Below are positions 17,812-58,903 of a stretch of DNA of 64,000 nucleotides, piece by piece (the stretch's first letter is position 1; every line of letters starts with the position of its first letter). Under the pieces are notes generated by a model. The model saw only the letters and a list, made by a program, of their open reading frames with translations. It was not told where the DNA came from and did no database searches. The translations under genes were made by a program, and so were the position numbers. Source of the DNA: Escherichia phage vB_EcoM_DE16; the sequence record OP595145.1; one strand, given 5' to 3'.

Positions 17812-17837
17812 TTTTAATAAAAGGGCCGAAGCCCTTA
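17812..17837 (-). terminator. rho-independent terminator after primase-helicase gene
   Basis: AAGGGC-CGAA-GCCCTT hairpin followed on the minus strand by TTTTATTAAAAAT; includes the stop codon. Confidence 0.6.
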
Positions 17838-19613
17838 ATAGTTGCTATCCGTAGGCAAATTAGCAGGATTGTTGAAATACTGCTCTTTGTCATGCAGAGT
17901 TGCAGTTCTAATGTCATAGTAAAACTGCCCTGCTGGACCAGTCTCTGAGAACTCACGGTTTTTTAGGATAAAGCAATGAGTCGTATTTCGTTCTACAGGG
18001 TCTTCAGCGGCTTTATCTCGTTCCAAAGCCAAGGTAATACCAGCACCTTTAGCCAAGAAACTACTACCCATTGCATCGTCCTCTGTTAAGTGTTCATTGC
18101 CACCATTAGCCGATTTCTTAACGTGTGAGATGACAATAATAGTTATAGCATACTCTTTCATGATGCGCTTCAACCATGTTGCTAACTCTTCCTGGGCTTG
18201 AACATCCATACCAGAAAGCAAATCAGAATAAGGGTCGATAACAAGAATTGTTACTCCAAAATAGATGATCATCTCCAAAACTTTTTCTTTGATAGACTCC
18301 ACATCTGCTCCACGATCATCACACACATAAAAACGTGGTGATCCATCTTCTCTTTCGTAAAAATCTAGGATTTTTTCTTTATTCTCTTCCAAGATTTGAA
18401 ATTTCTCTTCCGGTGTTTTCCTATGTAGAGGAATGTGCAGGAAAGAGGACAACAGGTTACGAGAATATTTCTTATAGGTTGCTTCCAATGACAGAATACC
18501 GAGGGTATGTTCTGGGTGTGCAACAATAATATGTTTGGTGATCTCGTTCACCATCAAAGTTTTACCGATACTGGTCTTTGCCAGGATGACTGTAATCTCT
18601 TCCTCTACTAAACCACCACCCAGCATATTTGCAGCAACACGCATAAAAGGAGGCAAGGTAATCATCTTGGATTCCAAACATTCTAATGCAGCTTCATACA
18701 AGACATTAGAAGCATAAACACCTGCTGGGGTGTATAGACGAGCACTCCAAAAAGCTTTTACGAAATCCTTTGCACGACCTTCTTCCAGATACTGATTGGC
18801 ATCCTTAAGATCCATCTGCATACGGTAGACTTTGTTACGAGGCAGCACCTTAACAATATTTTCAAATGCCTCATTACCCGCTTTGTCATTATCCATGCAA
18901 ACAATAATCTTCTTAAATTTTTCAAAGAAAGGATATTGTGCCTGAACTTGTTTATACATACTGGTTTCACCAGTTGTGCCACTTACTACTGCTGGAAGCT
19001 CATATTTGTTGTCCAAGTTTTCAGACAGCATTTGATAAGCTGCCAGAGCATCGTGTTCACCACCTGTAATTACCACAGTATGAGAACGATCTGCAAAACG
19101 AATTTGTCCAAAAAGATCTACATCTTTACCTACTTGACCAATAGGTTTACTGAAATCTTTAGGATGAATACGACGCTTAAAACCAACCAATTCTTTACCG
19201 ATGGTAGTCGGATATAAACAACTTTCTACTACCATCTGATCCCCTTCCTGACGGTATTCATAACGAACACCATAGAAAGATGAAACTTTTTCTTTAATGC
19301 CTCGATAACCACGTGGGTTGGTTGATGTTTCTTGAACAATTTTACGATGAATCTGTTTATTAAATTCCGAACCCACAATCTCCTCCTCTTCTTCTAAAAC
19401 TTCACCATTTTCTCGTAACCATTCTACGCTAGGAATAGTGTATTCACACGCAAAGCACTTAGCACCTTTATGCTCTCCATTAGAATCTAATCCATAAACC
19501 ATCAGGTTATTACGAGAGCGATCCTTGCCATTTTTCATGCAGCGCGGACAACCTGTATGCCCTTCCTTGCTAAGATCAACATCAAATCCATATTTAGTTA
19601 TAATGTGCGACAC
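17835..19613 (-). CDS. bifunctional DNA primase/helicase, T7 gp4-like
   Basis: 592 aa; N-terminal Cys4 zinc ribbon (CPRC...CFAC); TOPRIM-like GGEHDALAAYQ; DnaB-type helicase Walker A AKTSIGKT; GTG start after AGGAGAA. Confidence 0.8.
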   Translation of the reverse strand: MSHIITKYGFDVDLSKEGHTGCPRCMKNGKDRSRNNLMVYGLDSNGEHKGAKCFACEYTIPSVEWLRENGEVLEEEEEIVGSEFNKQIHRKIVQETSTNPRGYRGIKEKVSSFYGVRYEYRQEGDQMVVESCLYPTTIGKELVGFKRRIHPKDFSKPIGQVGKDVDLFGQIRFADRSHTVVITGGEHDALAAYQMLSENLDNKYELPAVVSGTTGETSMYKQVQAQYPFFEKFKKIIVCMDNDKAGNEAFENIVKVLPRNKVYRMQMDLKDANQYLEEGRAKDFVKAFWSARLYTPAGVYASNVLYEAALECLESKMITLPPFMRVAANMLGGGLVEEEITVILAKTSIGKTLMVNEITKHIIVAHPEHTLGILSLEATYKKYSRNLLSSFLHIPLHRKTPEEKFQILEENKEKILDFYEREDGSPRFYVCDDRGADVESIKEKVLEMIIYFGVTILVIDPYSDLLSGMDVQAQEELATWLKRIMKEYAITIIVISHVKKSANGGNEHLTEDDAMGSSFLAKGAGITLALERDKAAEDPVERNTTHCFILKNREFSETGPAGQFYYDIRTATLHDKEQYFNNPANLPTDSNY

Positions 19614-48470: not shown

Positions 48471-48827
48471 ATGAAAAAACTAATCTTAGCCACATTGCTG
48501 GCTACCGTAAGCTTCACCACTTACGCTCAAAAATTTGTAGCAGTTAAAACGGATATTGGTAAAGATGTTGTGATCACAGGCAACAAATTTTACTATACAC
48601 CTGGAAATGGTGTTCTAGAAGAGTGCAAAGATGTTGAGGCATATACAGGAAAAGAAGATAACACGGAACGTCCTTTTTATTCGATTATAGCTACTTGCAA
48701 AAATGAAATAGTAGCTATTAAACAATACAAAGATGCCCCTGGAGGAGAGTACTTATTAGTCAAGAATATTAAGAGTGAAAAAACTGCAAAGTTTACAGTA
48801 ATTATTTTAAAAGGAGAAACGTTCTAA
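48471..48827 (+). CDS. secreted protein with signal peptide
   Basis: Track ORF trimmed to ATG after GGAGGGAAG; MKKLILATLLATVSFTTYAQ. Confidence 0.4.
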   Translation: MKKLILATLLATVSFTTYAQKFVAVKTDIGKDVVITGNKFYYTPGNGVLEECKDVEAYTGKEDNTERPFYSIIATCKNEIVAIKQYKDAPGGEYLLVKNIKSEKTAKFTVIILKGETF

Positions 48828-49966
48828 TGAAATACACTATTTTTGGAGATGTAGCTGTTGTAAATAAGGAATATGGCGTTGAAGCTAATAAACTTCCTGC
48901 TGGAGTTTGGGTTGTCAACTGCGATCCGCACGGTAACTACTCTTTAGCGCGTGGCGAAAGTTTCTCTCTTCCGAACACTCTTTATGGGGAAACTAAAGAT
49001 CGCGCCGCACATGTTATTAAAACATTTGCTCGTCGTAGTAAAGAAGGTAAAAATACTGGGGTGTTACTGACAGGCACAAAAGGTAGTGGTAAGACGATGT
49101 TAGCTAAACTAATTAGCATGTCCCTAATGTCCACAGAAGGTTTAGGTATTCCAACCATTTTGGTTACACAGCCTTACACAGATGCTGGATTCTTAGAATT
49201 TATGAGTAAAATTACAGATCGTGCTGTTGTTTTATTTGACGAATTTGATAAAGTGTATGCTAAGAAAGAAGATCAGGAAGCACTGTTGACCTTGTTGGAT
49301 GGAACAGGAAGTGGGAATAAACTTTACATCCTCACTAAAAATAGTGGCTATATCTCGGAATATTTTGTAAACCGTCCTAGTCGTATTTATTACAGTTTCA
49401 ATTACGATAAACTGTCTAGTGAAACTATGTTAGATTACTTGGATAAGAACTTGGTAAATAAAAAGCACGTAGATAACTTCCAACGTTTATGGGATGTTAG
49501 CACAGAGCTGTCTTTCGATGTTATTCAAGGCATTGTAGAAGAATTGAATTTCTATCCAAAAATGACTTTTAAAGAATGTCTTGAAATGATGGGTATTTCT
49601 TTAGGCAACGATGCTAAATGGAATGTGGCTTCTATCGTAGCTAATGGCAAAACCCTGAAGGTGAATTGGATCAATAACTGGCACGACTTCACCCCTACTA
49701 AGTTTTTGTCGGGTTCTTGTTCCCTGAACATCTATCTGCAAAGCTTGAAAGATGATGAAGTGGAAGCAATGGAAACCAACAGTTATGTTATCCTGGATGA
49801 AGATGGCGATCCACATATTGATCTGTGTGCAACTGCTGATGGTCTAACTTGTGATCTGATTGAAGGTGGTAAGATTCTGGTGATGAGCACTACACCAGGA
49901 AACACTCTGCGAGTGGTGCTGGAGCCTGTAACACAACGTTCCACTACACTGGGTAGCGTGTTCTGA
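48827..49966 (+). CDS. AAA+/P-loop ATPase
   Basis: 379 aa; Walker A GTKGSGKT; Walker B VVLFDEFD. Confidence 0.55.
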   Translation: MKYTIFGDVAVVNKEYGVEANKLPAGVWVVNCDPHGNYSLARGESFSLPNTLYGETKDRAAHVIKTFARRSKEGKNTGVLLTGTKGSGKTMLAKLISMSLMSTEGLGIPTILVTQPYTDAGFLEFMSKITDRAVVLFDEFDKVYAKKEDQEALLTLLDGTGSGNKLYILTKNSGYISEYFVNRPSRIYYSFNYDKLSSETMLDYLDKNLVNKKHVDNFQRLWDVSTELSFDVIQGIVEELNFYPKMTFKECLEMMGISLGNDAKWNVASIVANGKTLKVNWINNWHDFTPTKFLSGSCSLNIYLQSLKDDEVEAMETNSYVILDEDGDPHIDLCATADGLTCDLIEGGKILVMSTTPGNTLRVVLEPVTQRSTTLGSVF

Positions 49967-49982
49967 TACAGCACAAATAACT

Positions 49983-50008
49983 AAACCCGCTTCGGCGGGT
50001 TTTGTTAT
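49983..50008 (+). terminator. rho-independent terminator
   Basis: AAACCCGC-TTCG-GCGGGTTT hairpin followed by TGTTAT. Confidence 0.7.
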
Positions 50009-50046
50009 ATTGACTTCAGACTTATAGGGAGAGAGGATAGATAAAG

Positions 50047-51249
50047 ATGGCGAAGACGTTAGAACAGTATATAGGAGAATGTAAACCAATAGCGGAAGCT
50101 AAAGGATATGAGATTATAGGGATTGTAGAGCCATTTAAAGGTGTGCACACGAAGATGATCAACTTCTGCCCTAATCATGGGGAGTGGAGAACATCCACAT
50201 TTGCCAATTTTAAACGTGGTAAGTCTGGTTGCCCTGGGTGCAAAAATGAGAAAGCAAGACAAGACAACAGTAAAAACCTAGATTATTACCTTTCGGAATG
50301 TAAGCCTATTGCTGAAGCTAAGGGAATCGAGATTTTAGGCATTAATGGAGAGTTTATAGGTGTACATACAAAGATGATCAACCTTTGTCCTGAGCACGGG
50401 GAATGGCGAACATTAACATTTCATAATCTTAAGGGTGGTAGTGGTTGTCCTAAATGCGGTAACAAAAGATCTAGGAATTCTAAAATACTCCCAGACGATC
50501 AGCACATACAAGACTTCATTAATACAGGAAAGTTTAAAGAGGGTACAATCTTCACTAAAACAGATAAAAAACGAGGCCGCGATTCTTTATGGTGTGTAGA
50601 GTGTCCTACCTGCTCTCACGATGAGTATGTGCAAGCTGGGGTGTGTGATGGTAAGTTTTATGTCGCAGGGAATGACCTTAAACAAGGGAAGATTCCTTGC
50701 CGTTGTGCAACTAACTGTCATTACACAGAAGCCCAGATTACCTATAGGGTAAAAAAGGCAGTAGAAAGGAAAGGGTATATCTGGGTAGGTTGGATCGGGA
50801 AACCGTCTGTAAGATTAGGTAAGTTTAAATATGGATGTAAGAAACATGGGGTACAAATAGGACGTGCCAGTGGTTTGTTAAATCATGGCACTGGTTGTCC
50901 GCAATGTGCTAACCAGACACAACAACAATGTTACATTAACCACATTCATGATGAACAAGGTATTCTCTGTGCTTTGAAATTTGGAATTGCCAATAATAGT
51001 GATCGCCGTATCAAAAAACAAAATAGTCGTAATGTGTTTACTATGAAACAGGTCCAAGTGTGGCACTTCCCTACTGTGAAGCAATGCAAAGATGCAGAGA
51101 AGCGTTGTAAGCGTGTCCTTCACACGGAAGCAGTGAGCAAATATGCTATGCCAGATGGCTACACAGAAACAGTAGAGTTATCTTGCATGGCCTCAATACA
51201 AAACATTTATAAACTTTATGGTGGAACATTACAGGAGGAAACATGTTAG
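50047..51249 (+). CDS. Cys/His-rich protein with tandem ~55-aa zinc-ribbon-like repeats
   Basis: 400 aa; two near-identical modules (ECKPIAEAKG...GVHTKMIN-x-CP-x-HGEWRT-x-TF...GCP-x-CxN) plus further CxxC/CP-x-C pairs. Confidence 0.5.
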   Translation: MAKTLEQYIGECKPIAEAKGYEIIGIVEPFKGVHTKMINFCPNHGEWRTSTFANFKRGKSGCPGCKNEKARQDNSKNLDYYLSECKPIAEAKGIEILGINGEFIGVHTKMINLCPEHGEWRTLTFHNLKGGSGCPKCGNKRSRNSKILPDDQHIQDFINTGKFKEGTIFTKTDKKRGRDSLWCVECPTCSHDEYVQAGVCDGKFYVAGNDLKQGKIPCRCATNCHYTEAQITYRVKKAVERKGYIWVGWIGKPSVRLGKFKYGCKKHGVQIGRASGLLNHGTGCPQCANQTQQQCYINHIHDEQGILCALKFGIANNSDRRIKKQNSRNVFTMKQVQVWHFPTVKQCKDAEKRCKRVLHTEAVSKYAMPDGYTETVELSCMASIQNIYKLYGGTLQEETC

Positions 51250-51608
51250 TTGACGTTCAAATTATGCGCAATGAAAGGATGGATTTCTTTGAAGCAGTAG
51301 AGGAACATCTGATTCGATGGGATTATGAATTTGTTCCTGCTGGATGTGGACCAGTAGAGCATTTAGCGGAAGACGATGATGTATACATGATCATTCGTCA
51401 AGTGTACCAGACAGACCAGTGTGAAGAAACTCCCGAACTGATTTTGTTTGAGTGTAAAGATCTTGCAAAATATTTTGACTATGGCGGAAAAGAGGGTCAT
51501 AATCTCTCCAGATACAATAAACGTCTACTTATCTTAGACTACATGCGGAACAACAAACACAAACTCATCGACGCAGACGCAGTTTATGGCTACTGGTGGA
51601 TGGACTAA
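51243..51608 (+). CDS. hypothetical early protein
   Basis: 121 aa; start overlaps upstream gene. Confidence 0.4.
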   Translation: MLVDVQIMRNERMDFFEAVEEHLIRWDYEFVPAGCGPVEHLAEDDDVYMIIRQVYQTDQCEETPELILFECKDLAKYFDYGGKEGHNLSRYNKRLLILDYMRNNKHKLIDADAVYGYWWMD

Positions 51609-51621: not shown

Positions 51622-51801
51622 ATGGCACGTTTAGCAGATCATGAAATCTTTAAACCTATTCTGAACCACTATGATGAACTTAAAGCAGTGTTGGATTGTT
51701 ATAGAGAGGATGAAGAACGTTTGGAAGTCAATCTTAAGATAGTTCTGATGAAAGCTTTTCAAGACGGGCAAGCTAAAGTTTTAGAAGGCATGAAAAAATG
51801 A
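51622..51801 (+). CDS. hypothetical small protein
   Basis: Track ORF trimmed to ATG after AAAGGAG; 59 aa. Confidence 0.35.
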   Translation: MARLADHEIFKPILNHYDELKAVLDCYREDEERLEVNLKIVLMKAFQDGQAKVLEGMKK

Positions 51802-52340
51802 GAATAACTGATGAATATGTATTCTTCTTTTCACATAAAGATGTGTTTAGTAATTGGTATATTGCACCCTTTACAGAAACTGAACCAGGTTACAATGAGA
51901 CTTTCTGTTGTGTTGAGCAATATATGATGTGGCGTAAGGCTTTGCTGTTCAAGGATCATGCGATTGCAGCAGCTATCCTTGATCACTCGACTATACGTGA
52001 CAACGAGAGGAAACAAGCTTATTACAAACGTATGGGTAGGGCAGTGTCGGATTTTGATAACAACGTATGGGAAGAGAACCGTGAGCGTATTGTTATGCGA
52101 GGTTTATGCTTGAAATATGTACAGAATCCAGATTTGTATGCAGACTTACACCTTTACCAATACAAAACGTTTGTTGAAGCAAGCCCCTACGATAAGGTTT
52201 ACGGAATTGGAATGGGGATGTATGAACCAGGGGTGCTAAACCCTGCCACCTGGAAAGGGCAGAATCTTTTAGGCAAATATCATAATAAACTGATCGAAAT
52301 ACTTTTCCCAGACAAAATACCGCAAAGACGATATTTGTGA
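51798..52340 (+). CDS. NADAR (YbiA-like) domain protein
   Basis: 180 aa; FFFS...FSNWY, FCCVEQYMMWRKALLF, ASPYDKVYGIGMG follow the NADAR pattern. Confidence 0.55.
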   Translation: MRITDEYVFFFSHKDVFSNWYIAPFTETEPGYNETFCCVEQYMMWRKALLFKDHAIAAAILDHSTIRDNERKQAYYKRMGRAVSDFDNNVWEENRERIVMRGLCLKYVQNPDLYADLHLYQYKTFVEASPYDKVYGIGMGMYEPGVLNPATWKGQNLLGKYHNKLIEILFPDKIPQRRYL

Positions 52341-52395
52341 TATTTTAACTTTTTTCATTTTTAGAACAAAGGTGTCACTTTGTAGCACAGAAATA

Positions 52396-52430
52396 AGGCT
52401 CCTACAGCACCGTAGAGAGCCTATTATTTT
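52396..52430 (+). terminator. terminator-like hairpin after the NADAR gene
   Basis: AGGCTCCTAC-AGCACC-GTAGAGAGCCT imperfect stem followed by ATTATTTT. Confidence 0.45.
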
Positions 52431-52581
52431 GTCCTATACAAACCTTGTCTTTTTCAGTTTGCATCACTAGGATTCGATCTGAGTGGGTTCCTGAAGGTCT
52501 GCCAATAAGATTAAAGGTTATCTCAAATTCCCATTACCTATTATCTCAAAAATCCCTCAAATTATTTAAACTTTTTAAGAA

Positions 52582-52758
52582 TTTACAAAAGTGAAAGTTG
52601 AAAACCAAAATTTAAAGTTTAGGAAAATTATCTTAAAATGTTAGATACAAAACAAAACTCAAAAGTCAAGGAAAATTTTAAAAATTTTGCGCGCCCACAG
52701 TATTTAAAGTTTTTTTGCTTTTACAAAAATGAAAGTACAAAAGCAAAATTTAAAGTTT
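52582..52758. repeat. AT-rich direct repeats (two ~39-bp copies) with embedded TTTAAAGTTT near-palindromes
   Basis: TTTACAAAAGTGAAAGTTGAAAACCAAAATTTAAAGTTT (52582-52620) vs TTTACAAAAATGAAAGTACAAAAGCAAAATTTAAAGTTT (52720-52758). Confidence 0.6.
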
Positions 52759-52807
52759 ACAAAAATTTATGCAGGTGGGAATGAGAAGAGTTCTCATGTG
52801 GAAATGC

Positions 52808-52886
52808 AAATGATAATGATTCGCATTTAGGTTTATAAATGAGATTGATTCTTATTCAATAAGGTAAATGATAATCATTCTCATTT
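52808..52886. promoter_or_regulatory. two Fur-box-like palindromic operators
   Basis: AAATGATAATGATTCGCATTT (52808-52828) and AAATGATAATCATTCTCATTT (52866-52886) vs Fur consensus GATAATGATAATCATTATC; also palindrome AATGAGAAGAGTTCTCATG at ~52779-52797. Confidence 0.45.
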
Positions 52887-53117
52887 AGAGAATGACGCGC
52901 AGGGGCGGTGTTTGTCTCGCGCTCCCGTGTCCCCTCGCCATGTAATAAGAATAACAGATCCAGCCAGGAAAGCAAGCGATTATTTTATCTTTACATTTCT
53001 TTACAAATATATAGCGCCCAGCCTACCGGCGATCAACCTTCCAACCAGCGCCCTGGTATGTTAGCCCCGCCTTTACGCCGTGGGGTGGCGCTTCCTCTTC
53101 TGTATGTAAAACAGTAT

Positions 53118-53160
53118 AAGCCCGATCCCTGGGCTTGTCAAGATTATTTTTTGTTTTCTT
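53118..53160 (+). terminator. terminator-like hairpin at the end of the GC-rich island
   Basis: AAGCCC-GATCCCT-GGGCTT stem then TTTTTTGTTTTCTT 10 nt downstream. Confidence 0.3.
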
Positions 53161-53519
53161 GCCAGGATAGGACACCTAACCAAAAATGCATATCGCCCCG
53201 CGCCCCTGGTGGGATCTTGCTTTCCCCGCCGCCACTGCAAGCCCATAAATAACCATCAGCGAACGGATCAAAGTTTTCTATTTCTTCCACCTTATGATCG
53301 CCCAGGTTGAGAACGGTTTCAACCTTTAAGCCCGTTGCGCTTGCTACCTGGTGCACCGTGCCGCCTTGCCAGCCCAATGAGTGCATAAGGTGTAATGTAG
53401 TATTTGTCATGGTATCGCCCTTTCTTTGTTGTGCGCCCTGGTTGGCGCGGTAGAAAGATGATAGCCGTTTCCTTCATATACAGCAAGCAAAAAGAAAATA
53501 AAAAAGATTGAAAAAGTGG

Positions 53520-53548
53520 TTGACGTTCCTCACCTGGTAGCGTAGTAT
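53520..53548 (+). promoter_or_regulatory. sigma70-like promoter with long leader
   Basis: TTGACG, 17 nt, TAGTAT; ~135-nt leader before ATG 53683. Confidence 0.4.
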
Positions 53549-53682
53549 TCATCTTGTCGAGGGGGCGCGGCACAACGACAATAAACAACAGGAGGGCGCA
53601 ATGTAGGACGGGCAAAGGTGAGGATCTCCATAATCCACCGTCCACCAACAAAAAACATCATTCATCACCTGGAGTTAAAATC

Positions 53683-53880
53683 ATGGCAACATTGCACATA
53701 GTAGCGAAAGCAGGACAAATCAGCGTCGTGGTAAACGGTTTTACTGAGTTCAGTCATCCCCAGGATGATCATGAAACGGTTTTATCTTTTATTGATTCCT
53801 TGTTAGAAATGGGAGTCATTACAGAAGACCAGCACGCTACAAAATGCAAGCGCGTTAATCAAATTGCAGGGATAGAATAA
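53683..53880 (+). CDS. hypothetical early protein
   Basis: Track ORF trimmed to ATG after GGAG; 65 aa. Confidence 0.35.
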   Translation: MATLHIVAKAGQISVVVNGFTEFSHPQDDHETVLSFIDSLLEMGVITEDQHATKCKRVNQIAGIE

Positions 53881-53886
53881 AAAGTA

Positions 53887-53946
53887 TTGACAACAAACAA
53901 CAACCTGATAAGATGTATCACATAGGGCGGGAAGTGGTTTCCCGCT
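53887..53946 (+). promoter_or_regulatory. promoter plus 5'UTR stem-loop cassette
   Basis: TTGACA, 16 nt, TAAGAT; hairpin GGGCGGGAA-GTGG-TTTCCCGC; then AGAGAGATTATCATC-ATG. Confidence 0.5.
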
Positions 53947-53970
53947 CGTAACAGAAGAGAGATTATCATC

Positions 53971-54243
53971 ATGGCATCATATAGCGCAACAATGATCGTA
54001 GCTGGCACAACTGGTAAACCTATGAGCGGTGGCGGATCTTTCGCTAATATCAATATTGACGGGCGTTTATCCCTGGACGCAGCGATTGCCATTGCACGGG
54101 AAACATTTAAAAAAGAATGTAATTTCAATAAGCAAGATTATTTAGGTTTCGCTATTGAAAAAACCGCGCGCTTTGTTGATTATAAAAGCCCGAAAATGAT
54201 CGACACTACACTAAAAGCGCAAGATGTAGCGTTTTTGCTTTAA
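53971..54243 (+). CDS. hypothetical early protein
   Basis: 90 aa; cassette-supplied RBS and ATGGC start. Confidence 0.45.
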   Translation: MASYSATMIVAGTTGKPMSGGGSFANINIDGRLSLDAAIAIARETFKKECNFNKQDYLGFAIEKTARFVDYKSPKMIDTTLKAQDVAFLL

Positions 54244-54246
54244 GGC

Positions 54247-54302
54247 TTGACATTAACGAATAATTTGTTAATATGTTACATAAAGCGGGAATAGTTCCCG
54301 CT
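54247..54302 (+). promoter_or_regulatory. promoter plus 5'UTR stem-loop cassette
   Basis: TTGACA, 16 nt, TAATAT; hairpin AGCGGGAA-TAG-TTCCCGCT. Confidence 0.5.
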
Positions 54303-54319
54303 ATTTGTAAGGTGGTAGA

Positions 54320-54577
54320 ATGTTTTACATCAAATTAAAAGGTCACGTGATCGCGTTCAAAGATAACGCTTTTTACAGATTAGCAAAATATGCGTTAATA
54401 CATCCCCACTATGTTTATATAAGGGGGCGTGATGAAATAAATATCTTTGATCAAACAACATGCGAGAACATCGAGATCCGCAAGGTTGGCGTACGTGACT
54501 ATCGTACATCTTTCTACCCTTGCAAGGATTCAGCAAGTCTTTTTAAAGTATGCCAATTGTTGAAAAAAGGTGGTTAA
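54320..54577 (+). CDS. hypothetical early protein
   Basis: 85 aa; GGTGG RBS. Confidence 0.4.
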   Translation: MFYIKLKGHVIAFKDNAFYRLAKYALIHPHYVYIRGRDEINIFDQTTCENIEIRKVGVRDYRTSFYPCKDSASLFKVCQLLKKGG

Positions 54578-54578
54578 T

Positions 54579-55136
54579 ATGGGCCGCGAATATGTGATCC
54601 AGTCTTGGGTAAAACATGAAGCAGATGATCCGCGCATCATTCCCGATCATCTTATCGATGAATCCACGGGATATAGCGGTGAGCAAATAGGTAACAGATT
54701 AGCACGTAGTAACGGCAACGTAAAAGCGCGTTATGTGCGCCCTGGCTGGCTGGCAAATGGTAACGCTGATTTATCCAGTGCGGAAGATGCGAGCGACGGC
54801 GCGAAAGATAATCCTTTGTACAAAATTGATCCGGCTTTTCGTGTCCTGGATGAATACCCCAGCAAGATAGCGGCGCTCGATCAGGCCCTGGAAAGTAAGC
54901 GCATCACCTGGACCGCTTACAACATGGCAAAAAACGTACTTGATGGTAAATTGATTCAAGCTGAAAGAAAATTAGCCAAAATTGCAGCCATAGCCCAGGA
55001 GGAAGACGAGGAGACAACGGAAGAGGAAGAGTACGAAGAGATCCCGCCGTTGTTGTGTGTTGATGCTTTTCCTGATTATCAGCCGACAGAGGAAGAAAAA
55101 AGGATCGCACTAGAAAACTTTGAAAATAGTCTTTGA
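54579..55136 (+). CDS. hypothetical protein with acidic C-terminal region
   Basis: Track ORF trimmed to ATG after AAAGGTGG; 185 aa. Confidence 0.4.
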   Translation: MGREYVIQSWVKHEADDPRIIPDHLIDESTGYSGEQIGNRLARSNGNVKARYVRPGWLANGNADLSSAEDASDGAKDNPLYKIDPAFRVLDEYPSKIAALDQALESKRITWTAYNMAKNVLDGKLIQAERKLAKIAAIAQEEDEETTEEEEYEEIPPLLCVDAFPDYQPTEEEKRIALENFENSL

Positions 55137-55189
55137 CATATCGCCGCCACTGGCATAATATTTACCACGTAGGGCGGCAATGGTGCCGC
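55134..55189 (+). promoter_or_regulatory. promoter plus 5'UTR stem-loop cassette
   Basis: TTGACA, CATAAT/TAATAT; hairpin GGCGGCA-ATGG-TGCCGC. Confidence 0.5.
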
Positions 55190-55218
55190 TCATAGTGAAA
55201 TTATGCAAGAGGCTTACA

Positions 55219-55314
55219 ATGATTAATAAAGAAAATAGCTTGACGGTTGGAACGATTAACGCTATCATTCTAGCCGTTCCATTTTGGGTTGTAGTAGCGG
55301 CTATTATTTTCTAA
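55219..55314 (+). CDS. small membrane peptide (31 aa), not in supplied ORF track
   Basis: CAAGAGG RBS; MINKENSLTVGTINAIILAVPFWVVVAAIIF. Confidence 0.3.
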   Translation: MINKENSLTVGTINAIILAVPFWVVVAAIIF

Positions 55315-55322
55315 AAATATTC

Positions 55323-55383
55323 TTGACAACGTTTTTTAATCTGATAAGATGTATCACATAGGGCGGCGGAATACTTCCCCGCC
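55323..55383 (+). promoter_or_regulatory. promoter plus 5'UTR stem-loop cassette
   Basis: TTGACA, 16 nt, TAAGAT; hairpin GGGCGGCGGAA-TAC-TTCCCCGCC. Confidence 0.5.
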
Positions 55384-55406
55384 AAAACAAAAAAAAGGGT
55401 AACACA

Positions 55407-55769
55407 ATGAGCAAGCAAATCAATACTATCATGTTTAATCTGGTATCTTTCCGCGATGATATGAAAAATTTACCACGTGAAACGGTTGATATCCATGTTT
55501 CAGCTTATCGCGCCCTTATTGATATGTTACCGCTAAAACGTGATCAACATGCCGCTAATATGATGCTTAATGCTATGCTTAAAAAGATGATTCAAACGGA
55601 TCTTACTCTGGCGTATGAGTATCAAGGGCGCTTATATGCGACTTACAACAAAGCGGTACCTGGTCTGGGAAGTACCGAAGAGTTGCACGGCTTAAACCTG
55701 GATCAAAACACTTGGGATAGTATGCGCCGCGTTATGGTATGGGCCGAAAGCGGTAAAATTTACGAATAA
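55407..55769 (+). CDS. hypothetical early protein
   Basis: 120 aa. Confidence 0.45.
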   Translation: MSKQINTIMFNLVSFRDDMKNLPRETVDIHVSAYRALIDMLPLKRDQHAANMMLNAMLKKMIQTDLTLAYEYQGRLYATYNKAVPGLGSTEELHGLNLDQNTWDSMRRVMVWAESGKIYE

Positions 55770-55775
55770 AAACGG

Positions 55776-55832
55776 TTGACACTGTTTAAACTTCTGGTAT
55801 AGTTTATCACGTAGGGCGGCAATGGTGCCGCC
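55776..55832 (+). promoter_or_regulatory. promoter plus 5'UTR stem-loop cassette
   Basis: TTGACA, 16 nt, TATAGT; hairpin GGCGGC-AATGG-TGCCGCC. Confidence 0.5.
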
Positions 55833-55852
55833 AACAATAAAAGGTTAACATC

Positions 55853-56032
55853 ATGGCTATCATTGCAAAAACTGAGATTATAGGTTTAGATTCGATCCTC
55901 CTGGCTTATGAGGAAACTTTAAAAATGTATGTAGTGACCTATGGTGATTATGTGCGTGAATACGAATACATTGATCTTGCTTTCGAATGTTACATTCGCC
56001 AGGTCAATAAAGCCTATAACGATTATCGTTAA
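55853..56032 (+). CDS. hypothetical small protein (59 aa), not in supplied ORF track
   Basis: AAAGG RBS; ATGGCT start as in other cassette genes. Confidence 0.35.
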   Translation: MAIIAKTEIIGLDSILLAYEETLKMYVVTYGDYVREYEYIDLAFECYIRQVNKAYNDYR

Positions 56033-56051
56033 AAGTTTTAGTCTTATACTA

Positions 56052-56103
56052 TTGACAATGAGTGATAGTATAAGCATAATAACTTTTATCGGGAATACTT
56101 CCC
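56052..56103 (+). promoter_or_regulatory. promoter plus short 5'UTR stem-loop cassette
   Basis: TTGACA, 17 nt, CATAAT; hairpin GGGAA-TAC-TTCCC. Confidence 0.45.
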
Positions 56104-56129
56104 ACTAACCAAAAAGAGAGATTATCATC

Positions 56130-56495
56130 ATGGCTATTAATATCAATGTTTCCGCTTATGCTACCCTGGCTAACACGGCTAAAATTGAATTATCCAGCAT
56201 TGAAGCGGTGCACATTAGCGCCCGTCGCTGGTTTCAACAGTCCTACGGTAACACATATTTTTCTTTAATGGTTGACGTTGAGATCGGCGGTAAACTGATC
56301 GAGGTGGTTAACGTTCCGTTTCAATATGGCTATGGTGATCATTTTGATACCGTCGCCCTGGAAGAATTTAGCAAGGTTATTAATATGGAAGGTAAAGAGT
56401 TTTCACGCGGCGCGTATCTTTCCCGTTTTTGCCGTGACAATGGGATCACTGTATACAGTCATGCGAGCGATGTTAAACGTAAAAAAGATTTATAA
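56130..56495 (+). CDS. hypothetical early protein
   Basis: 121 aa; AGAGAGATTATCATC-ATGGCT. Confidence 0.45.
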   Translation: MAININVSAYATLANTAKIELSSIEAVHISARRWFQQSYGNTYFSLMVDVEIGGKLIEVVNVPFQYGYGDHFDTVALEEFSKVINMEGKEFSRGAYLSRFCRDNGITVYSHASDVKRKKDL

Positions 56496-56501
56496 AAAGC
56501 A

Positions 56502-56560
56502 TTGACAGCACGAATAAAAAGAGTAAACTGTATTACATAGAGAGCGGGAATACTTCCCGC
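56502..56560 (+). promoter_or_regulatory. promoter plus 5'UTR stem-loop cassette
   Basis: TTGACA, 16 nt, TAAACT; hairpin GCGGGAA-TAC-TTCCCGC. Confidence 0.5.
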
Positions 56561-56584
56561 CTCACTGAAAAAGAGATTAATATC

Positions 56585-56824
56585 ATGGCTAAATCAAAAA
56601 TGTTCTTAGGTCACAAAAATAAAACTCATTGGAATGTAAGCCTTTGGATTAATAATGACGAATCATTATATCGGTTGGCGAAAGAATTTATCGCCGCTAA
56701 TACTAATCGTAATGATGCTGCCCGTGATATGATGTTATTCCTGGAACAAACTGGACAAGATAAAACTCCAGACGGTTTCAAGTATAGCACTACAGCGATC
56801 CGCGCCGCGATGGTTGGAATGTAA
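56585..56824 (+). CDS. hypothetical early protein
   Basis: 79 aa. Confidence 0.45.
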   Translation: MAKSKMFLGHKNKTHWNVSLWINNDESLYRLAKEFIAANTNRNDAARDMMLFLEQTGQDKTPDGFKYSTTAIRAAMVGM

Positions 56825-56833
56825 TAAAAACAG

Positions 56834-56893
56834 TTGACAACGTTTAAAATTAGTGTAAGATGTATCACATAGGGCGGGAAGTGGTTTCCCGCC
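56834..56893 (+). promoter_or_regulatory. promoter plus 5'UTR stem-loop cassette
   Basis: TTGACA, 16 nt, TAAGAT; hairpin GGGCGGGAA-GTGG-TTTCCCGCC (same as the 53887 copy). Confidence 0.5.
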
Positions 56894-56914
56894 AAAACAG
56901 AGAGATTAAAGATT

Positions 56915-57142
56915 ATGGCTATCAATATTGTTCGCGTATCCGGCACCGTTGGCACTTCCCAGGTTATTGCAGTTGTAACAAACAAAAAGATTAATGATGT
57001 ATGTGAGATCTTGAATAAGTGGGCTGTTGCTAATTTTGGGGAATATGCAAGCGTCGAGTACATCGAATCCTACCAGGTGCCAACCATCAGCCTAACCGAT
57101 CTCAACGTTGATCGCCTGTTATGCCTGGATGAATTAATCTGA
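56915..57142 (+). CDS. hypothetical early protein
   Basis: 75 aa. Confidence 0.45.
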   Translation: MAINIVRVSGTVGTSQVIAVVTNKKINDVCEILNKWAVANFGEYASVEYIESYQVPTISLTDLNVDRLLCLDELI

Positions 57143-57151
57143 AAAAGATTG

Positions 57152-57207
57152 TTGACACGGGAAAGAAAAAGAGTAAACTGTATTACGTAGGGCGGCAATA
57201 GTGCCGC
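57152..57207 (+). promoter_or_regulatory. promoter plus 5'UTR stem-loop cassette
   Basis: TTGACA, 16 nt, TAAACT; hairpin GGCGGCA-ATAG-TGCCGC. Confidence 0.5.
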
Positions 57208-57232
57208 TCACAACAGAAGAGAGATTATCACG

Positions 57233-57448
57233 ATGGCTAATATCCGTACACTGTTAAAAAATGCAAGTCAAGTTTTATTTTCAGATGACGAGTATTTCAA
57301 TAAAGACATTACAGGCGTAAAAAATCTTAAAGATGTAAAGGATGTGATAGGTATTCGCGGATCTTTACGTAAAGGTGACTACTACGGCAATAAAGTACAA
57401 TATAAATTAAATCAGTCTTATGATTTTACTTTGACAATTATTTCATAA
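57233..57448 (+). CDS. hypothetical early protein
   Basis: 71 aa. Confidence 0.45.
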   Translation: MANIRTLLKNASQVLFSDDEYFNKDITGVKNLKDVKDVIGIRGSLRKGDYYGNKVQYKLNQSYDFTLTIIS

Positions 57449-57454
57449 AACCGC

Positions 57455-57516
57455 TTGCAATCTTAATAAAATAAAGTAAACTGTATTACATCAAGGCGGC
57501 GGAATGGTCCACCGCC
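57455..57516 (+). promoter_or_regulatory. promoter plus 5'UTR stem-loop cassette
   Basis: TTGCAA, 16 nt, TAAACT; hairpin GGCGGCGGA-ATGG-TCCACCGCC. Confidence 0.45.
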
Positions 57517-57540
57517 TAACAAAGAGAAGAGGAAAACACC

Positions 57541-57708
57541 ATGATCACTTTCGCTACCCGTGAAGCCGCTCGCAACGTTGCCCGTAAAGTTAACGCCGCC
57601 AACCTGGGCGCTACGTTTAAAGCACCTGTAAAAGATGAATCAGGGAAATGGATCTTCCCTGGTCTGCGTCATGCTGACAAGTTAGGTACTTTAAGCCTTA
57701 AAAAATAA
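57541..57708 (+). CDS. hypothetical small basic protein (55 aa), not in supplied ORF track
   Basis: AGAGGAAAA RBS; MITFATREAARNVARKVNAANLG... Confidence 0.35.
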   Translation: MITFATREAARNVARKVNAANLGATFKAPVKDESGKWIFPGLRHADKLGTLSLKK

Positions 57709-57711
57709 TCG

Positions 57712-57749
57712 TTGACTTTTCGTTATAGCGCCTTATAATGGGCGCTATA
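57712..57749 (+). promoter_or_regulatory. sigma70-like promoter with -10 box inside a perfect palindrome
   Basis: TTGACT, 16 nt, TATAAT; inverted repeat TATAGCGCC / GGCGCTATA brackets the -10. Confidence 0.45.
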
Positions 57750-57782
57750 GAGAAGAGAAACCACTACTAACAAGGAAACATC

Positions 57783-58004
57783 ATGATCACTTTCGCTATT
57801 GTCGCCGTTGTCGCTGGTCAGGTTTACGTAAACGATACATTCACCACAGAAGACAAGGCCGCAGGAGACATAACCGCCGTTTACAATAAGTGCAAGGCAG
57901 TAGAAAGGATGTTAGCGCCTTGTATGTTAATGAGTGAACGCCAGGACGGGATAACAGTGTTTACTAACATTGAAACAGGGTACCAAATGGTAGTAACAAA
58001 ATAA
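57783..58004 (+). CDS. hypothetical early protein
   Basis: 73 aa; hydrophobic N-terminus MITFAIVAVVAG. Confidence 0.4.
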   Translation: MITFAIVAVVAGQVYVNDTFTTEDKAAGDITAVYNKCKAVERMLAPCMLMSERQDGITVFTNIETGYQMVVTK

Positions 58005-58007
58005 AGC

Positions 58008-58065
58008 TTGACACGGATTTAATTTTCAGTAAACTGTTACACGTAGGGCGGGAATAGTTCCCGCT
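58008..58065 (+). promoter_or_regulatory. promoter plus 5'UTR stem-loop cassette
   Basis: TTGACA, 16 nt, TAAACT; hairpin GGGCGGGAA-TAG-TTCCCGC. Confidence 0.5.
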
Positions 58066-58082
58066 AAAAAGAGAGAAAGACC

Positions 58083-58436
58083 ATGAAAGCACAAAATGCA
58101 ATTAAAGAGTACATCCTTGCCGCTATCGATTTTAATGATTACGGTATTACAACCGAAAAAGAGAAGATCGCGGAATTGATGCGCCGTTTTAATTCAGAGT
58201 ACTGGTACCCTGATAACCAATCACGTTTTAATTATAGTATTGTTAAAGCACTTGCATCATGGTTACAAGGTTTGCCATCAGATATCAATATCGCTTTCGA
58301 ATATTGGGAAATTGATCGCTTGTTAACATCCTGGGGATACATTAAAGAGAATAGCAACGATGATAAAATCCAACGAGAAAGGGAAAATTATTGGCTTTAT
58401 ATTGCAGGCGTGATCCTTGCTTGCTCTTATGAATGA
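58083..58436 (+). CDS. hypothetical early protein
   Basis: 117 aa. Confidence 0.45.
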   Translation: MKAQNAIKEYILAAIDFNDYGITTEKEKIAELMRRFNSEYWYPDNQSRFNYSIVKALASWLQGLPSDINIAFEYWEIDRLLTSWGYIKENSNDDKIQRERENYWLYIAGVILACSYE

Positions 58437-58442
58437 TAAACC

Positions 58443-58496
58443 TTGACAATTTTACAAAACAGTTTAAATTAACAATATAGCGGCAATGGTGCCGCT
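58443..58496 (+). promoter_or_regulatory. promoter plus 5'UTR stem-loop cassette
   Basis: TTGACA, 16 nt, TAAATT; hairpin AGCGGCA-ATGG-TGCCGCT. Confidence 0.5.
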
Positions 58497-58515
58497 CATA
58501 TGAAGAGGAAACAAA

Positions 58516-58662
58516 ATGAATACATCTAATCGCGCAGAAAAAATTCAATCTTCCAAGATCCGCAAGGCCTGGAACGAGGAAGTGATCCGCAAAGGCGACA
58601 AGCGCAATAAAACAAAGCGCGGGAAGAGTGACAAATATAATTGGATGGATTTAGAGGATTAA
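58516..58662 (+). CDS. hypothetical small basic protein (48 aa), not in supplied ORF track
   Basis: GAAGAGGAAA RBS; followed by a strong terminator. Confidence 0.35.
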   Translation: MNTSNRAEKIQSSKIRKAWNEEVIRKGDKRNKTKRGKSDKYNWMDLED

Positions 58663-58668
58663 CATAAC

Positions 58669-58696
58669 AAGGGCGCACCAAGCGCCCTTTCTTTTT
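58669..58696 (+). terminator. rho-independent terminator
   Basis: GGGCGC-ACCAA-GCGCCC hairpin followed by TTTCTTTTTAT. Confidence 0.7.
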
Positions 58697-58717
58697 ATAT
58701 GTAGAGGATAAACAAAG

Positions 58718-58903
58718 ATGACTTTAAACGAGCTTAAAACAGCCTACAACGCAACGTTAAAAATAGCCGTGCGTTACCGTGATGCGTACGGTTTTATCGC
58801 GCAGGGCGTGATCCTGGGCTTTTCTGACGATGGTTTGATCTATGTTGATGCACATCATAACAAGGTAAAACCTGAAAACGTCATTAGCATAAAATATCTT
58901 TAA
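58718..58903 (+). CDS. hypothetical early protein
   Basis: 61 aa; GAGGA RBS. Confidence 0.4.
   Translation: MTLNELKTAYNATLKIAVRYRDAYGFIAQGVILGFSDDGLIYVDAHHNKVKPENVISIKYL

What the first reader, a model, noticed from the sequence alone, without database searches (positions are those of the whole stretch)
50047..51249. Cys/His-rich early protein built from a tandemly duplicated ~170-bp module
Nucleotides about 50083-50255 and 50296-50468 are about 75% identical direct repeats. They encode two copies of ECKPIAEAKG(Y/I)EI(I/L)GI...GVHTKMIN-x-CP-x-HGEWRT-x-TF-x-N...GCP-x-C, and further CxxC / CP-x-C pairs follow. A multi-zinc-ribbon protein expressed early could be a nucleic-acid binder, a host RNA polymerase or nuclease inhibitor, or a degenerate homing-endonuclease relative.
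Basis: seen in the sequence. Interest (0 to 1): 0.5.

Follow-up and report, generated by a model that had tools for sequence, protein, structure and literature searches.

The report
Zinc-finger-array GIY-YIG phage endonuclease gene
The Cys/His-rich gene encodes a putative homing-type DNA endonuclease of a large E. coli phage: four zinc-finger DNA-reading modules (the first two a tandem duplicate) followed by an intact GIY-YIG nuclease domain, a gene architecture already described in other phages and therefore ordinary.

Summary
ORF 50047-51249 (400 aa) starts with two tandem 73-aa modules (period 219 nt, 74% nt and 66% aa identity; alignment score 247 against 25±5 for shuffles).

Repeated zinc-finger arrays in this family were described by Barth et al. 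2023. The gene is therefore not degenerate and not an inhibitor, and 'early' expression is untested.

One local point is worth noting. The gene fills a fixed cassette between an AAA ATPase gene and a small ORF across the subfamily. The flanks are 96-100% identical, but the finger-module sequences are deeply divergent and the number of leading modules varies from one to three.

Verdict: a member of a known kind, low interest.

The parts
49983..50002 (+). Terminator-like GC hairpin (AAACCCGCTTCGGCGGGTTT + T-run) between the AAA ATPase gene and the endonuclease gene. It marks the upstream edge of the variable cassette.
   Evidence: 8-bp stem, 5 GC pairs. The same or an alternative hairpin sits at this position in all alleles compared. 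Nucleotide identity to related phages collapses from about 49930-50030 onward.
50027..50037 (+). Purine-rich ribosome-binding site (GGGAGAGAGGA), 9 nt upstream of the ATG at 50047.
   Evidence: Read from the sequence. Its resemblance to a T7-type promoter core is chance: 21 matches with <=2 mismatches against 18.2 expected.
50047..51249 (+). Complete ORF, 400 aa: CapR/DUF723 zinc-finger array plus T5orf172-like GIY-YIG nuclease (putative free-standing homing-type endonuclease).
   Evidence: PHROG 681 'endonuclease', E=4.7e-78; 99.4% identical to Ro121c4YLVW gp109 'endonuclease'; AF2 mean pLDDT 92.7.
50047..50265 (+). Zinc-finger module M1 (aa 1-73, A-type: helix, three strands, C41-x2-H44 ... 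C62-x2-C65). First copy of the tandem duplicate.
   Evidence: module HMM E=1.7e-28; secondary structure H5-18, E22-26, E36-41, E45-51, H63-74.
50266..50484 (+). Zinc-finger module M2 (aa 74-146, A-type; C114-x2-H117 ... C134-x2-C137). Second copy of the tandem duplicate.
   Evidence: E=4.1e-26; sister to M1 in a module NJ tree; M1 vs M2: pS 0.775, pN 0.26.
50485..50718 (+). Zinc-finger module M3 (aa 147-224, B-type; C186-x2-C189 ... C218-x-C220, the CapR CxxC...CxC pattern).
   Evidence: Best Pfam CapR stretch is aa 155-221, covering profile positions 2-67 of 67. Ligands are invariant or near-invariant.
50719..50919 (+). Zinc-finger module M4 (aa 225-291, A-type; C264-x2-H267 ... C284-x2-C287).
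   Evidence: E=6.8e-25. All four ligands are invariant in 41 homologues.
50920..51246 (+). GIY-YIG-fold nuclease domain of T5orf172/MUG113 type (aa 292-400), with Y296 on strand 1, K311-x-G313 on strand 2, R321 in helix 1, E351 in helix 2 and E374 in the conserved DGYTET loop.
51229..51249 (+). Conserved 3' end (GAGGAGGAAACATGTTAG). It holds the RBS and the ATG (51243) of the downstream 121-aa ORF, overlapping the endonuclease stop. It marks the downstream edge of the cassette.
   Evidence: identical in all alleles, including the otherwise 35%-identical ESCO13 allele. ORF 51243..51608.

Best explanation
The gene encodes a modular, sequence-specific DNA endonuclease of the T5orf172 branch of the GIY-YIG superfamily. 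This is the type called 'T5orf172 homing endonuclease with CapR-type DNA-binding domains' in Vibrio phage ICP1.

Four independently folded ~70-aa zinc-finger modules are arranged as beads on a string in the order A-A-B-A. The first two are an old tandem duplicate. I infer that each binds one Zn through a Cys/His knuckle plus a CxxC or CxC, and that together they read an extended DNA site. The C-terminal ~110-aa GIY-YIG domain then cuts nearby, with Arg321 and Glu374 in the catalytic roles.

The gene is free-standing, in a fixed slot between an AAA ATPase gene and a small ORF of a Phapecoctavirus. I infer that during mixed infections it cleaves related phage genomes that carry a different allele of the slot, and is copied or retained through recombinational repair. 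Adding, losing or swapping finger modules would change the site that is read.

Shown here: the repeat, the domain architecture, ligand and catalytic-residue conservation, the fold, homology to ICP1 gp165, and the mosaic locus. Inferred: zinc binding, DNA binding, cleavage, and homing or exclusion.
For: Repeat and modules:
- Period 219 nt, 74% nt and 66% aa identity, score 247 against 25±5 for shuffles.
- Pfam CapR homology domain E=2.4e-28 in 4 stretches; DUF723 E=1.9e-8.
- PHROG 681 'endonuclease' E=4.7e-78.
- Zn-ligand columns are invariant or >=90% conserved in 41 homologues.

Nuclease domain:
- AF2 C-terminal model has pLDDT 95.7 and pTM 0.87 with beta-beta-alpha-beta-alpha topology.
- Y296, K311, G313, R321, E351, G371, E374 and T375 are invariant in 36 diverse C-terminal domains.
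- T5orf172 or MUG113 is the only recurrent Pfam hit among them (19 and 15 of 36).
- dN/dS is 0.15-0.25 in the nuclease domain.

Link to the published family:
- Colinear BLASTP match to ICP1 ORF165/gp165, E=5e-32 over aa 1-327.
- gp165 is named as a CapR-domain T5orf172 putative HEG in PMC8096241.
- That paper showed that the four Cys of CapR are needed for DNA binding.
- PMC8263062 showed that a T5orf172 nuclease (Odn) cuts DNA in vitro and is killed by mutating the conserved Glu.
- PMC10448857 reports that 87% of T5orf172 HEGs carry CapR/DUF723/DUF4397 fingers, often repeated, and that the repeats recombine.

Locus:
- Flanks are 96-100% identical between phages, while the intergenic region plus the finger-coding part falls to 0-75%. 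The last ~300 nt recover to 91-98%.
- Alleles carry 1, 2 or 3 leading A modules.
Against: - No biochemical data exist for this protein or any close relative.
- The Pfam T5orf172 and MUG113 hits are below the gathering thresholds (18.3 vs 20 bits; 19.9 vs 22.3).
- A profile of the domain finds no PDB sequence.
- The hhalign match to the gp165 C-terminus is weak (probability 9.7%).
- The classic HEG signature of sporadic presence/absence is not seen. Essentially every related genome (about 70 of 74 records) has an endonuclease in this slot, and synteny holds in the sister genus Justusliebigvirus.
- The only 'empty' site (EP57) is in a 130-kb record of doubtful assembly and fuses the two neighbouring ORFs.
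- No target site is known.
Confidence: 0.8

Rival explanations
1. Domesticated, phage-beneficial nuclease, analogous to ICP1 Odn. The finger array targets a competitor (a satellite, plasmid, prophage or rival phage) rather than promoting the gene's own spread. Allelic diversity of the fingers would then reflect an arms race with that target.
For: - The gene is retained at the same position in essentially all Phapecoctavirus records and in Justusliebigvirus muut and PsgM04F, unlike typical sporadic HEGs.
- All modules and the nuclease are under purifying selection (dN/dS 0.09-0.36).
- No frameshifted or truncated allele was seen. The one apparent case, vB_EcoM_01, is an N-run assembly gap.
- Barth et al. 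propose Odn-like anti-satellite T5orf172 nucleases in the related phages Muut, Inny and Mt1B1_P17.
Against: - Those Odn-like proteins carry RepA_N domains copied from the target, and this one does not.
- No target was identified.
- Very high synonymous divergence in the finger region (dS > 1) against near-identical flanks fits replacement by recombination from a pool of HEG modules at least as well.
Confidence: 0.3
2. Mainly a DNA-binding regulator. On this view the zinc-finger array acts as a transcriptional repressor, like PLE CapR or I-TevI autorepression, and the nuclease domain is inactive or secondary.
For: - CapR itself is a domesticated copy of this finger domain and represses the ICP1 capsid operon by DNA binding (PMC8096241).
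- I-TevI represses when no cleavage site is in range (cited in PMC10448857).
- The gene sits among small regulatory-looking genes and is translationally overlapped with the next ORF.
Against: - CapR lacks a nuclease domain. Here the domain is complete, confidently folded, has invariant Y/R/E residues and is the most conserved part of the protein (89-92% aa identity between alleles).
- A pure regulator would not need it.
Confidence: 0.1
3. One reading: a zinc-ribbon inhibitor of host RNA polymerase or of a nuclease, or a decayed homing-endonuclease remnant.
For: Only the Cys/His richness and the location in a region of small uncharacterised genes.
Against: - Every part of the protein is accounted for by CapR/DUF723 DNA-binding modules and a GIY-YIG nuclease fold.
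- Catalytic motif residues are intact and invariant.
- There are no frameshifts or stops.
- Nothing resembles known RNAP-binding phage proteins in the Pfam, PHROG, NCBIfam or structure searches.
Confidence: 0.03

Closest known systems
Vibrio phage ICP1 gp165 (ORF165), with gp174, gp121, gp53 and gp130: T5orf172-family putative homing endonucleases with CapR homology domains (Netter 2021, PMC8096241; Barth 2023, PMC10448857)
   Same: - Colinear homology over aa 1-327 (27% identity, E=5e-32).
- The same Pfam CapR repeats, four stretches in both.
- The same C-terminal T5orf172-like domain, scoring just under the Pfam cutoff in both (18.3 and 18.0 bits).
- Repeated finger modules, with evidence of module gain and loss.
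   Different: - Different phage lineage and host (Stephanstirmvirinae of E. coli versus Mohonavirus of V. cholerae).
- Module order here is A-A-B-A, whereas gp165's first module aligns best with the B-type (second HSP).
- ICP1 HEGs vary in presence between isolates. This one is fixed in its slot and varies by allele.
PLE CapR (capsid repressor of the V. cholerae phage satellite PLE)
   Same: The same zinc-finger DNA-binding domain (Pfam PF21817 is named after it). The CxxC...CxC ligand pattern is present in module M3, and mutating these Cys in CapR abolishes DNA binding.
   Different: CapR is a 15.5-kDa stand-alone domain with no nuclease and acts as a repressor. The window protein has four such modules plus an intact nuclease domain.
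I-TevI and the free-standing Seg GIY-YIG endonucleases of phage T4
   Same: [quoted passage not shown]
- Free-standing placement between conserved phage genes, as for the Seg genes (established knowledge).
   Different: - Domain order is reversed: here the nuclease is C-terminal, in I-TevI it is N-terminal.
- The motif is the T5orf172 variant (YIN...KFGIA), not GIY...YIG.
- The DNA-binding part is four large CapR/DUF723 modules rather than a minimal Zn finger plus minor-groove helix plus HTH.
- There is no detectable sequence similarity.
ICP1 Odn (Gp88), an origin-directed T5orf172 nuclease (Barth 2021, PMC8263062)
   Same: A T5orf172-type nuclease domain fused to a swappable DNA-binding domain. 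Nuclease activity was demonstrated and depends on the conserved Glu (E180), which corresponds by motif to E374 here.
   Different: Odn's DNA-binding domain is a RepA_N domain captured from its satellite target, and it is a proven anti-satellite weapon. The window protein has CapR/DUF723 fingers and no known target.

Membership tests
CapR homology domain / DUF723 zinc-finger DNA-binding modules (Pfam PF21817, PF05265) | Significant match to the family profile, above the curated cutoff. | tested here: met
   CapR 98.6 bits against a cutoff of 24.2, E=2.4e-28, 4 stretches. DUF723 34.6 bits against 20.9.
CapR homology domain / DUF723 zinc-finger DNA-binding modules (Pfam PF21817, PF05265) | Two conserved ligand pairs per module (CxxC/CxxH ... 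CxxC/CxC, about 17-28 residues apart). | tested here: met
   Ligand sets are C41/H44/C62/C65, C114/H117/C134/C137, C186/C189/C218/C220 and C264/H267/C284/C287. Columns are invariant or >=90% conserved in 41 homologues.
CapR homology domain / DUF723 zinc-finger DNA-binding modules (Pfam PF21817, PF05265) | Zinc binding and sequence-specific DNA binding. | not testable with these tools
   Shown only for PLE CapR, by Cys-to-Ser mutants and EMSA (PMC8096241).
T5orf172 / MUG113 branch of the GIY-YIG nuclease superfamily (Pfam PF10544, PF13455) | Match to the Pfam profile above the gathering score. | tested here: inconclusive
   The isolated domain scores 18.3 bits (cutoff 20) for T5orf172 and 19.9 bits (cutoff 22.3) for MUG113. 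These are the only recurrent hits among 36 homologous domains (19 and 15 members, best E=1.2e-5). The reference HEG ICP1 gp165 also scores only 18.0 bits.
T5orf172 / MUG113 branch of the GIY-YIG nuclease superfamily (Pfam PF10544, PF13455) | GIY-YIG fold (three-stranded sheet flanked by helices, beta-beta-alpha-beta-alpha). | tested here: met
   [not shown]
T5orf172 / MUG113 branch of the GIY-YIG nuclease superfamily (Pfam PF10544, PF13455) | Conserved catalytic Tyr (strand 1), Arg (helix 1) and Glu. | tested here: met
   Y296, R321 and E374 are invariant in 36 diverse domains, together with K311-x-G313 and E351. Their equivalence to I-TevI Y6/R27/E75 and Odn E180 is inferred from motif order and secondary structure, not from a residue-level superposition.
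T5orf172 / MUG113 branch of the GIY-YIG nuclease superfamily (Pfam PF10544, PF13455) | Endonuclease activity. | not testable with these tools
   Demonstrated in this family only for ICP1 Odn (PMC8263062).
Free-standing homing endonuclease gene (functional class) | A self-contained gene inserted between conserved genes, with sequence discontinuity at its borders. | tested here: met
   Flanks are 96-100% identical. Identity collapses exactly from the ATPase stop codon to within the gene, or to its last 20 nt in the ESCO13 allele.
Free-standing homing endonuclease gene (functional class) | Sporadic presence/absence among close relatives, and decaying copies. | tested here: not met
   An endonuclease occupies the slot in essentially all 74 related records and in the sister genus. 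The only absence (EP57) is in a dubious 130-kb record. The apparent truncated copy is an assembly gap.
Free-standing homing endonuclease gene (functional class) | Cleavage of the cognate allele that lacks the gene (or carries a different allele), and super-Mendelian inheritance. | not testable with these tools
   Needs in vitro cleavage assays and phage crosses.

The most novel reading that the evidence does not exclude
The slot between the ATPase gene and the small downstream ORF may be a long-lived 'specificity cassette' of the whole subfamily Stephanstirmvirinae. On this reading a conserved GIY-YIG nuclease is kept in place, while its zinc-finger modules are duplicated, lost and swapped (1-3 leading modules, dS > 1) between phages that are otherwise 96-100% identical. 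Co-circulating phages would then carry mutually incompatible nuclease alleles that cut each other's genomes. Examples of such pairs are Ro121c4YLVW/Ro121lw and ECO340P1/ECO340P2, each pair reported from the same host strain. That would make it an inter-phage exclusion or allelic-incompatibility system rather than a transient selfish HEG.
Probability: 0.25. Interest if true: 0.5.

Novelty: new member of a known kind. Interest (0 to 1): 0.2.

Why it matters
It matters little beyond correct annotation. The gene should be read as a CapR/DUF723 zinc-finger array joined to a T5orf172 (GIY-YIG) endonuclease, not as an unknown early zinc protein or an inhibitor.

Tried and rejected
1. T7-like promoter. 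'TTATAGGGAGA' just upstream of the ATG resembles a T7-type promoter core, but there is one exact copy and 21 matches with <=2 mismatches against 18.2 expected. It is read as the RBS instead.
2. Sigma-70 promoter directly upstream. None was found between the terminator hairpin and the ATG, so the 'early' label cannot be supported or refuted.
3. Paralogues in the window. tblastn with the whole protein, the nuclease domain and module 1 found only the gene itself.
4. Foldseek of the full-length model against the PDB. Nothing reached E <= 0.001. The tandem dsRBD proteins (Loqs-PB, R2D2, DRB4, PKR) at probability <= 0.23 share only the alpha-beta-beta-beta-alpha topology of the modules and were not pursued. 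Slx1 appeared weakly.
5. Profile of the nuclease domain against PDB sequences. No hit even at E <= 10.
6. hhalign of that profile against the ICP1 gp165 C-terminus. The right motifs aligned, but probability was only 9.7%.
7. A 'shorter allele' in vB_EcoM_01. This is an artefact, 397 N's across the repeat.
8. An 'empty site' in vB_EcoM_EP57. The junction joins 49957 to about 51229 and fuses the ATPase to the downstream ORF. The 130-kb record has other gaps, so it is not accepted as a clean HEG-less allele.
9. Positive selection on the fingers. dN/dS is 0.09-0.36 everywhere and dS is saturated in M1/M2 comparisons, so there is no evidence for it. The divergence looks old or imported rather than rapid in situ.
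10. Recent duplication. M1 and M2 are sister modules (NJ tree without bootstrap), but synonymous sites are saturated (pS 0.775), so the duplication is not recent.
11. Clustering of polymorphisms at the ATPase 3' end as a possible target site. There are 8 variable sites in the last 60 nt against a mean of 2.8 per bin. This is suggestive only and not significant after correction for 19 bins.
12. NCBIfam gave nothing useful for the protein.
Full report
**1. The observation**

The window holds an ORF at 50047..51249 on the + strand (400 aa; 24 Cys, 14 His). No competing ORF longer than 81 aa lies on the other strand.

The repeat finder reports two co-linear direct-repeat blocks, 50077-50124 / 50296-50343 (79%) and 50134-50221 / 50353-50440 (77%), both spaced 219 nt. 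A gapped local alignment joins them into 50077-50235 versus 50296-50451, 119/160 = 74% identical. The period is 73 codons.

At protein level the two modules are 46/70 identical, with a BLOSUM62 score of 247. One thousand shuffles of module 2 give 25.2 ± 4.9, maximum 51.

The quoted peptide motifs and the later CxxC / CPxC pairs are all present. The only flaw is that its first-copy start (50083) is 6 nt out of register with its second-copy start.

**2. Where the window comes from**

The gene is 99.2-99.4% identical to genes in six phage records. These include Escherichia phage vB_EcoM-Ro121c4YLVW (genus Phapecoctavirus, subfamily Stephanstirmvirinae; ~150-kb myoviruses), where RefSeq calls it gp109 'endonuclease'.

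The upstream neighbour (48827-49966) is an AAA ATPase. Downstream lie a 121-aa ORF that overlaps the stop codon, a 71-aa ORF, and a NADAR-domain protein.

**3. Domain architecture**

Family searches:
- Pfam finds the CapR homology domain (PF21817) in four stretches (E=2.4e-28, 98.6 bits against a cutoff of 24.2).
- DUF723 scores E=1.9e-8.
- Weak MUG113/T5orf172 hits fall at aa 301-365.
- PHROG 681 'endonuclease' matches end to end (E=4.7e-78).

A module HMM built here separates three A-type modules from one B-type module:
- A-type: M1 (aa 1-73), M2 (aa 74-146), M4 (aa 225-291).
- B-type: M3 (aa 147-224), which is the best match to the Pfam CapR profile.

The likely Zn ligand sets are:
- M1: C41/H44/C62/C65
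- M2: C114/H117/C134/C137
- M3: C186/C189/C218/C220
- M4: C264/H267/C284/C287

In an alignment of 41 homologues these columns are invariant or at least 90% conserved.

AlphaFold2 with that alignment gives mean pLDDT 92.7 and pTM 0.55. That combination means confident domains with undefined mutual orientation, which fits beads on a string. Each A module is predicted as helix, three strands, short helix, then a helix that starts at the CxxC.

**4.

Residues 292-400 are the most conserved part of the protein. In 36 diverse homologous domains Y296, K311, G313, R321, E351, G371, E374 and T375 are invariant.

Scanned alone, the domain scores 18.3 bits on T5orf172 (cutoff 20) and 19.9 bits on MUG113 (cutoff 22.3). 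Among the 36 homologues these two related families are the only recurrent hits: 19 and 15 members, best E=1.2e-5.

A profile search of PDB sequences found nothing. Foldseek with the full-length model was not significant.

**5. Direct link to a described family**

BLASTP against Vibrio phage ICP1 ORF165 gives a colinear match over aa 1-327 (27% identity, E=5e-32). ORF165 itself shows CapR in four stretches and T5orf172 at 18.0 bits.

What the literature says:
- Netter et al. 2021 (PMC8096241) name gp165, gp174, gp121, gp53 and gp130 as putative homing endonucleases. These combine CapR-homology DNA-binding domains with a C-terminal T5orf172 domain.
- The same paper showed that the four conserved Cys of the satellite protein CapR are needed for DNA binding.
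- Barth et al. 2021 (PMC8263062) showed that a T5orf172 nuclease (Odn) cuts DNA in vitro and is inactivated by mutating the conserved Glu.
- Barth et al. 2023 (PMC10448857) report that 200 of 229 T5orf172 HEGs carry CapR, DUF723 or DUF4397 zinc fingers, and that many carry several of them as 'beads on a string'.
- They also report that nucleotide-level repeats between these modules recombine, causing in-frame deletions, duplications and domain swaps.

The finding is an instance of exactly that architecture.

tblastn finds relatives in 398 phage records: Vibrio 148, Escherichia 141, Klebsiella 35, and others. The metagenomic protein search finds 209 clusters, almost all annotated DUF723 + CapR.

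**6. The locus in related phages**

All related genomes examined have an 'endonuclease' between the ATPase gene and the small ORF, but in several allelic forms:

| Protein length | Example phages | Leading A modules |
|---|---|---|
| 330-332 aa | G1, tuntematon | 1 |
| 394 aa | phAPEC8, nepoznato | 2 |
| 400 aa | this window | 2 |
| 402 aa | ukendt | 2 |
| 486 aa | ESCO13 | 3 |

The general formula is [A]n-B-A-nuclease.

Sliding nucleotide identity shows flanks at 96-100%. Identity collapses to 0-75% from the ATPase stop codon through the finger-coding part, then returns to 91-98% in the last ~300 nt. In the ESCO13 allele only the last 20 nt are shared. Those last 20 nt carry the RBS and ATG of the downstream ORF.

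Amino-acid identity of the window protein to the other alleles (ESCO13 aside, which is 35-44% in every region including the nuclease domain) is 42-68% in M1/M2, 56-80% in M3, 56-70% in M4, and 89-92% in the nuclease domain. Synonymous divergence is above 1 or saturated in the leading fingers M1/M2 (0.8-3.0 in M3 and M4), against 0.2-0.4 in the nuclease domain. dN/dS is 0.09-0.36 throughout.

The finger regions are thus old, or imported from a divergent pool by recombination, rather than fast-evolving in place. All parts are under purifying selection.

In a neighbour-joining tree of modules (no bootstrap), the window's M1 and M2 are each other's closest relatives, which indicates an allele-specific tandem duplication. 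Their synonymous sites are saturated (pS 0.775, pN 0.26), so the duplication is not recent and both copies have been maintained.

Synteny of ATPase and endonuclease also holds in the sister genus Justusliebigvirus (muut) and in PsgM04F.

**7. Mechanism proposed**

- Shown: the repeat, the four finger modules with conserved ligands, an intact GIY-YIG-fold domain, homology to published T5orf172 HEGs, and a mosaic cassette-like locus.
- Inferred from the family (CapR EMSA, Odn cleavage, I-TevI paradigm): each module binds Zn and a few base pairs. The array reads a long site, and the tethered nuclease cuts nearby using R321 and E374.
- Inferred from the locus: in mixed infections the enzyme cuts genomes with a different allele, and repair copies or retains the cutter's cassette. 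Changes in module number or identity re-target it.

The classic HEG signature of sporadic presence was tested and not met. I therefore give appreciable weight (0.3) to a domesticated, phage-beneficial nuclease of the Odn type.

**8.

- 'Nucleic-acid binder' and 'homing-endonuclease relative' are right.
- 'Degenerate' is wrong.
- 'RNA polymerase or nuclease inhibitor' has no support.
- 'Early' is untested. A terminator-like hairpin (49983-50002) precedes the gene, and no sigma-70-like promoter lies between it and the ATG. The T7-like 'TATAGGGAGA' is chance and serves as the RBS. The repeated strong promoter cassettes of this region start only at about 53.9 kb. No transcript data were found.

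**9. Novelty and score**

The kind is known and published. The gene is already annotated 'endonuclease' in RefSeq, and a related Justusliebigvirus homologue (phage alia, about 50% identical) is named 'CapR homology domain-containing protein' in UniRef.

No paper found here treats the Phapecoctavirus members or their allelic series, so I file it as a new member of a known kind.

Interest is 0.2. A specialist would not be surprised. The allelic series at a fixed slot is a tidy natural experiment on finger number and specificity, and it allows the somewhat more novel reading of an inter-phage incompatibility cassette (probability about 0.25).

Noticed in passing
window 53870-59260: At least six copies of a repeated unit: TTGACA - 17 nt - TAAACT/TAAGAT - GTATyACAT - AGGGCGG..., followed by a GC hairpin (for example GGGCGGCAATGGTGCCGC) and, about 25-40 nt later, the start of a small ORF. 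These look like strong host-type (early) promoters with a conserved 5'-UTR stem-loop (families D1-D6, D8). The endonuclease gene has no such unit upstream.
   Followed up: partly
window 52340-53570: About 1.2 kb with no annotated gene in the near-identical RefSeq phage. It is AT-rich and has a 29-nt-period triple repeat at 52780-52888 and a 72-nt pair at 52558/52696. No tRNA was found. It could be an origin or a regulatory region.
   Followed up: no
window 51798-52340: The 180-aa protein is a NADAR-domain protein (Pfam E=1.8e-35; NCBIfam riboflavin-intermediate N-glycosidase domain E=6e-33). Several GenBank records label it 'GTP cyclohydrolase II', which looks like a mis-annotation.
   Followed up: partly
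window 51229-51249 and ORF 51243-51608: The endonuclease stop codon overlaps the ATG of the next ORF (GGAGGAAACATGTTAG). These last 20 nt are conserved even in the ESCO13 allele, which is otherwise unrelated at nucleotide level. As a result every allele ends in ...EETC. This suggests translational coupling and defines the cassette's downstream edge.
   Followed up: yes
L009 (PP129558.1, Escherichia phage vB_EcoM_01), equivalent to window 50177-50605: The public record has 397 N's exactly across the tandem-repeat part of this gene. It is an assembly gap, probably caused by the repeat, and makes the gene appear truncated in that annotation.
   Followed up: yes
L008 (OR544956.1, vB_EcoM_EP57), equivalent to window 49957-51229: This 130-kb record lacks the endonuclease gene entirely. 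The ATPase ORF is fused in frame to the downstream ORF (a 502-aa CDS). The record has other gaps in the same region, so it may be an assembly artefact rather than a natural empty site.
   Followed up: partly
window 49945-49965 (last 22 nt of the ATPase gene): Six of the 53 variable sites of the 1140-nt ATPase gene, among seven phages, fall in its last 22 nt, next to the cassette. This could be a recombination-junction scar or a target-site polymorphism. It is not significant after correction for multiple bins.
   Followed up: partly
Database records H2, H5 and H78-H80: Near-identical Phapecoctavirus genomes are deposited as 'Acinetobacter phage vB_AbaM_ABPW7', 'Campylobacter phage B15/A145/C3...' and 'Pseudomonas phage PsgM04F'. 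These host labels are doubtful for an E. coli phage lineage.
   Followed up: no
window 19497-19724 (- strand, inside ORF 17835..19613): Weak tblastn similarity (E about 0.7-3) of the CxxC regions of the endonuclease to a 592-aa ORF. It is probably an unrelated zinc-ribbon motif.
   Followed up: no
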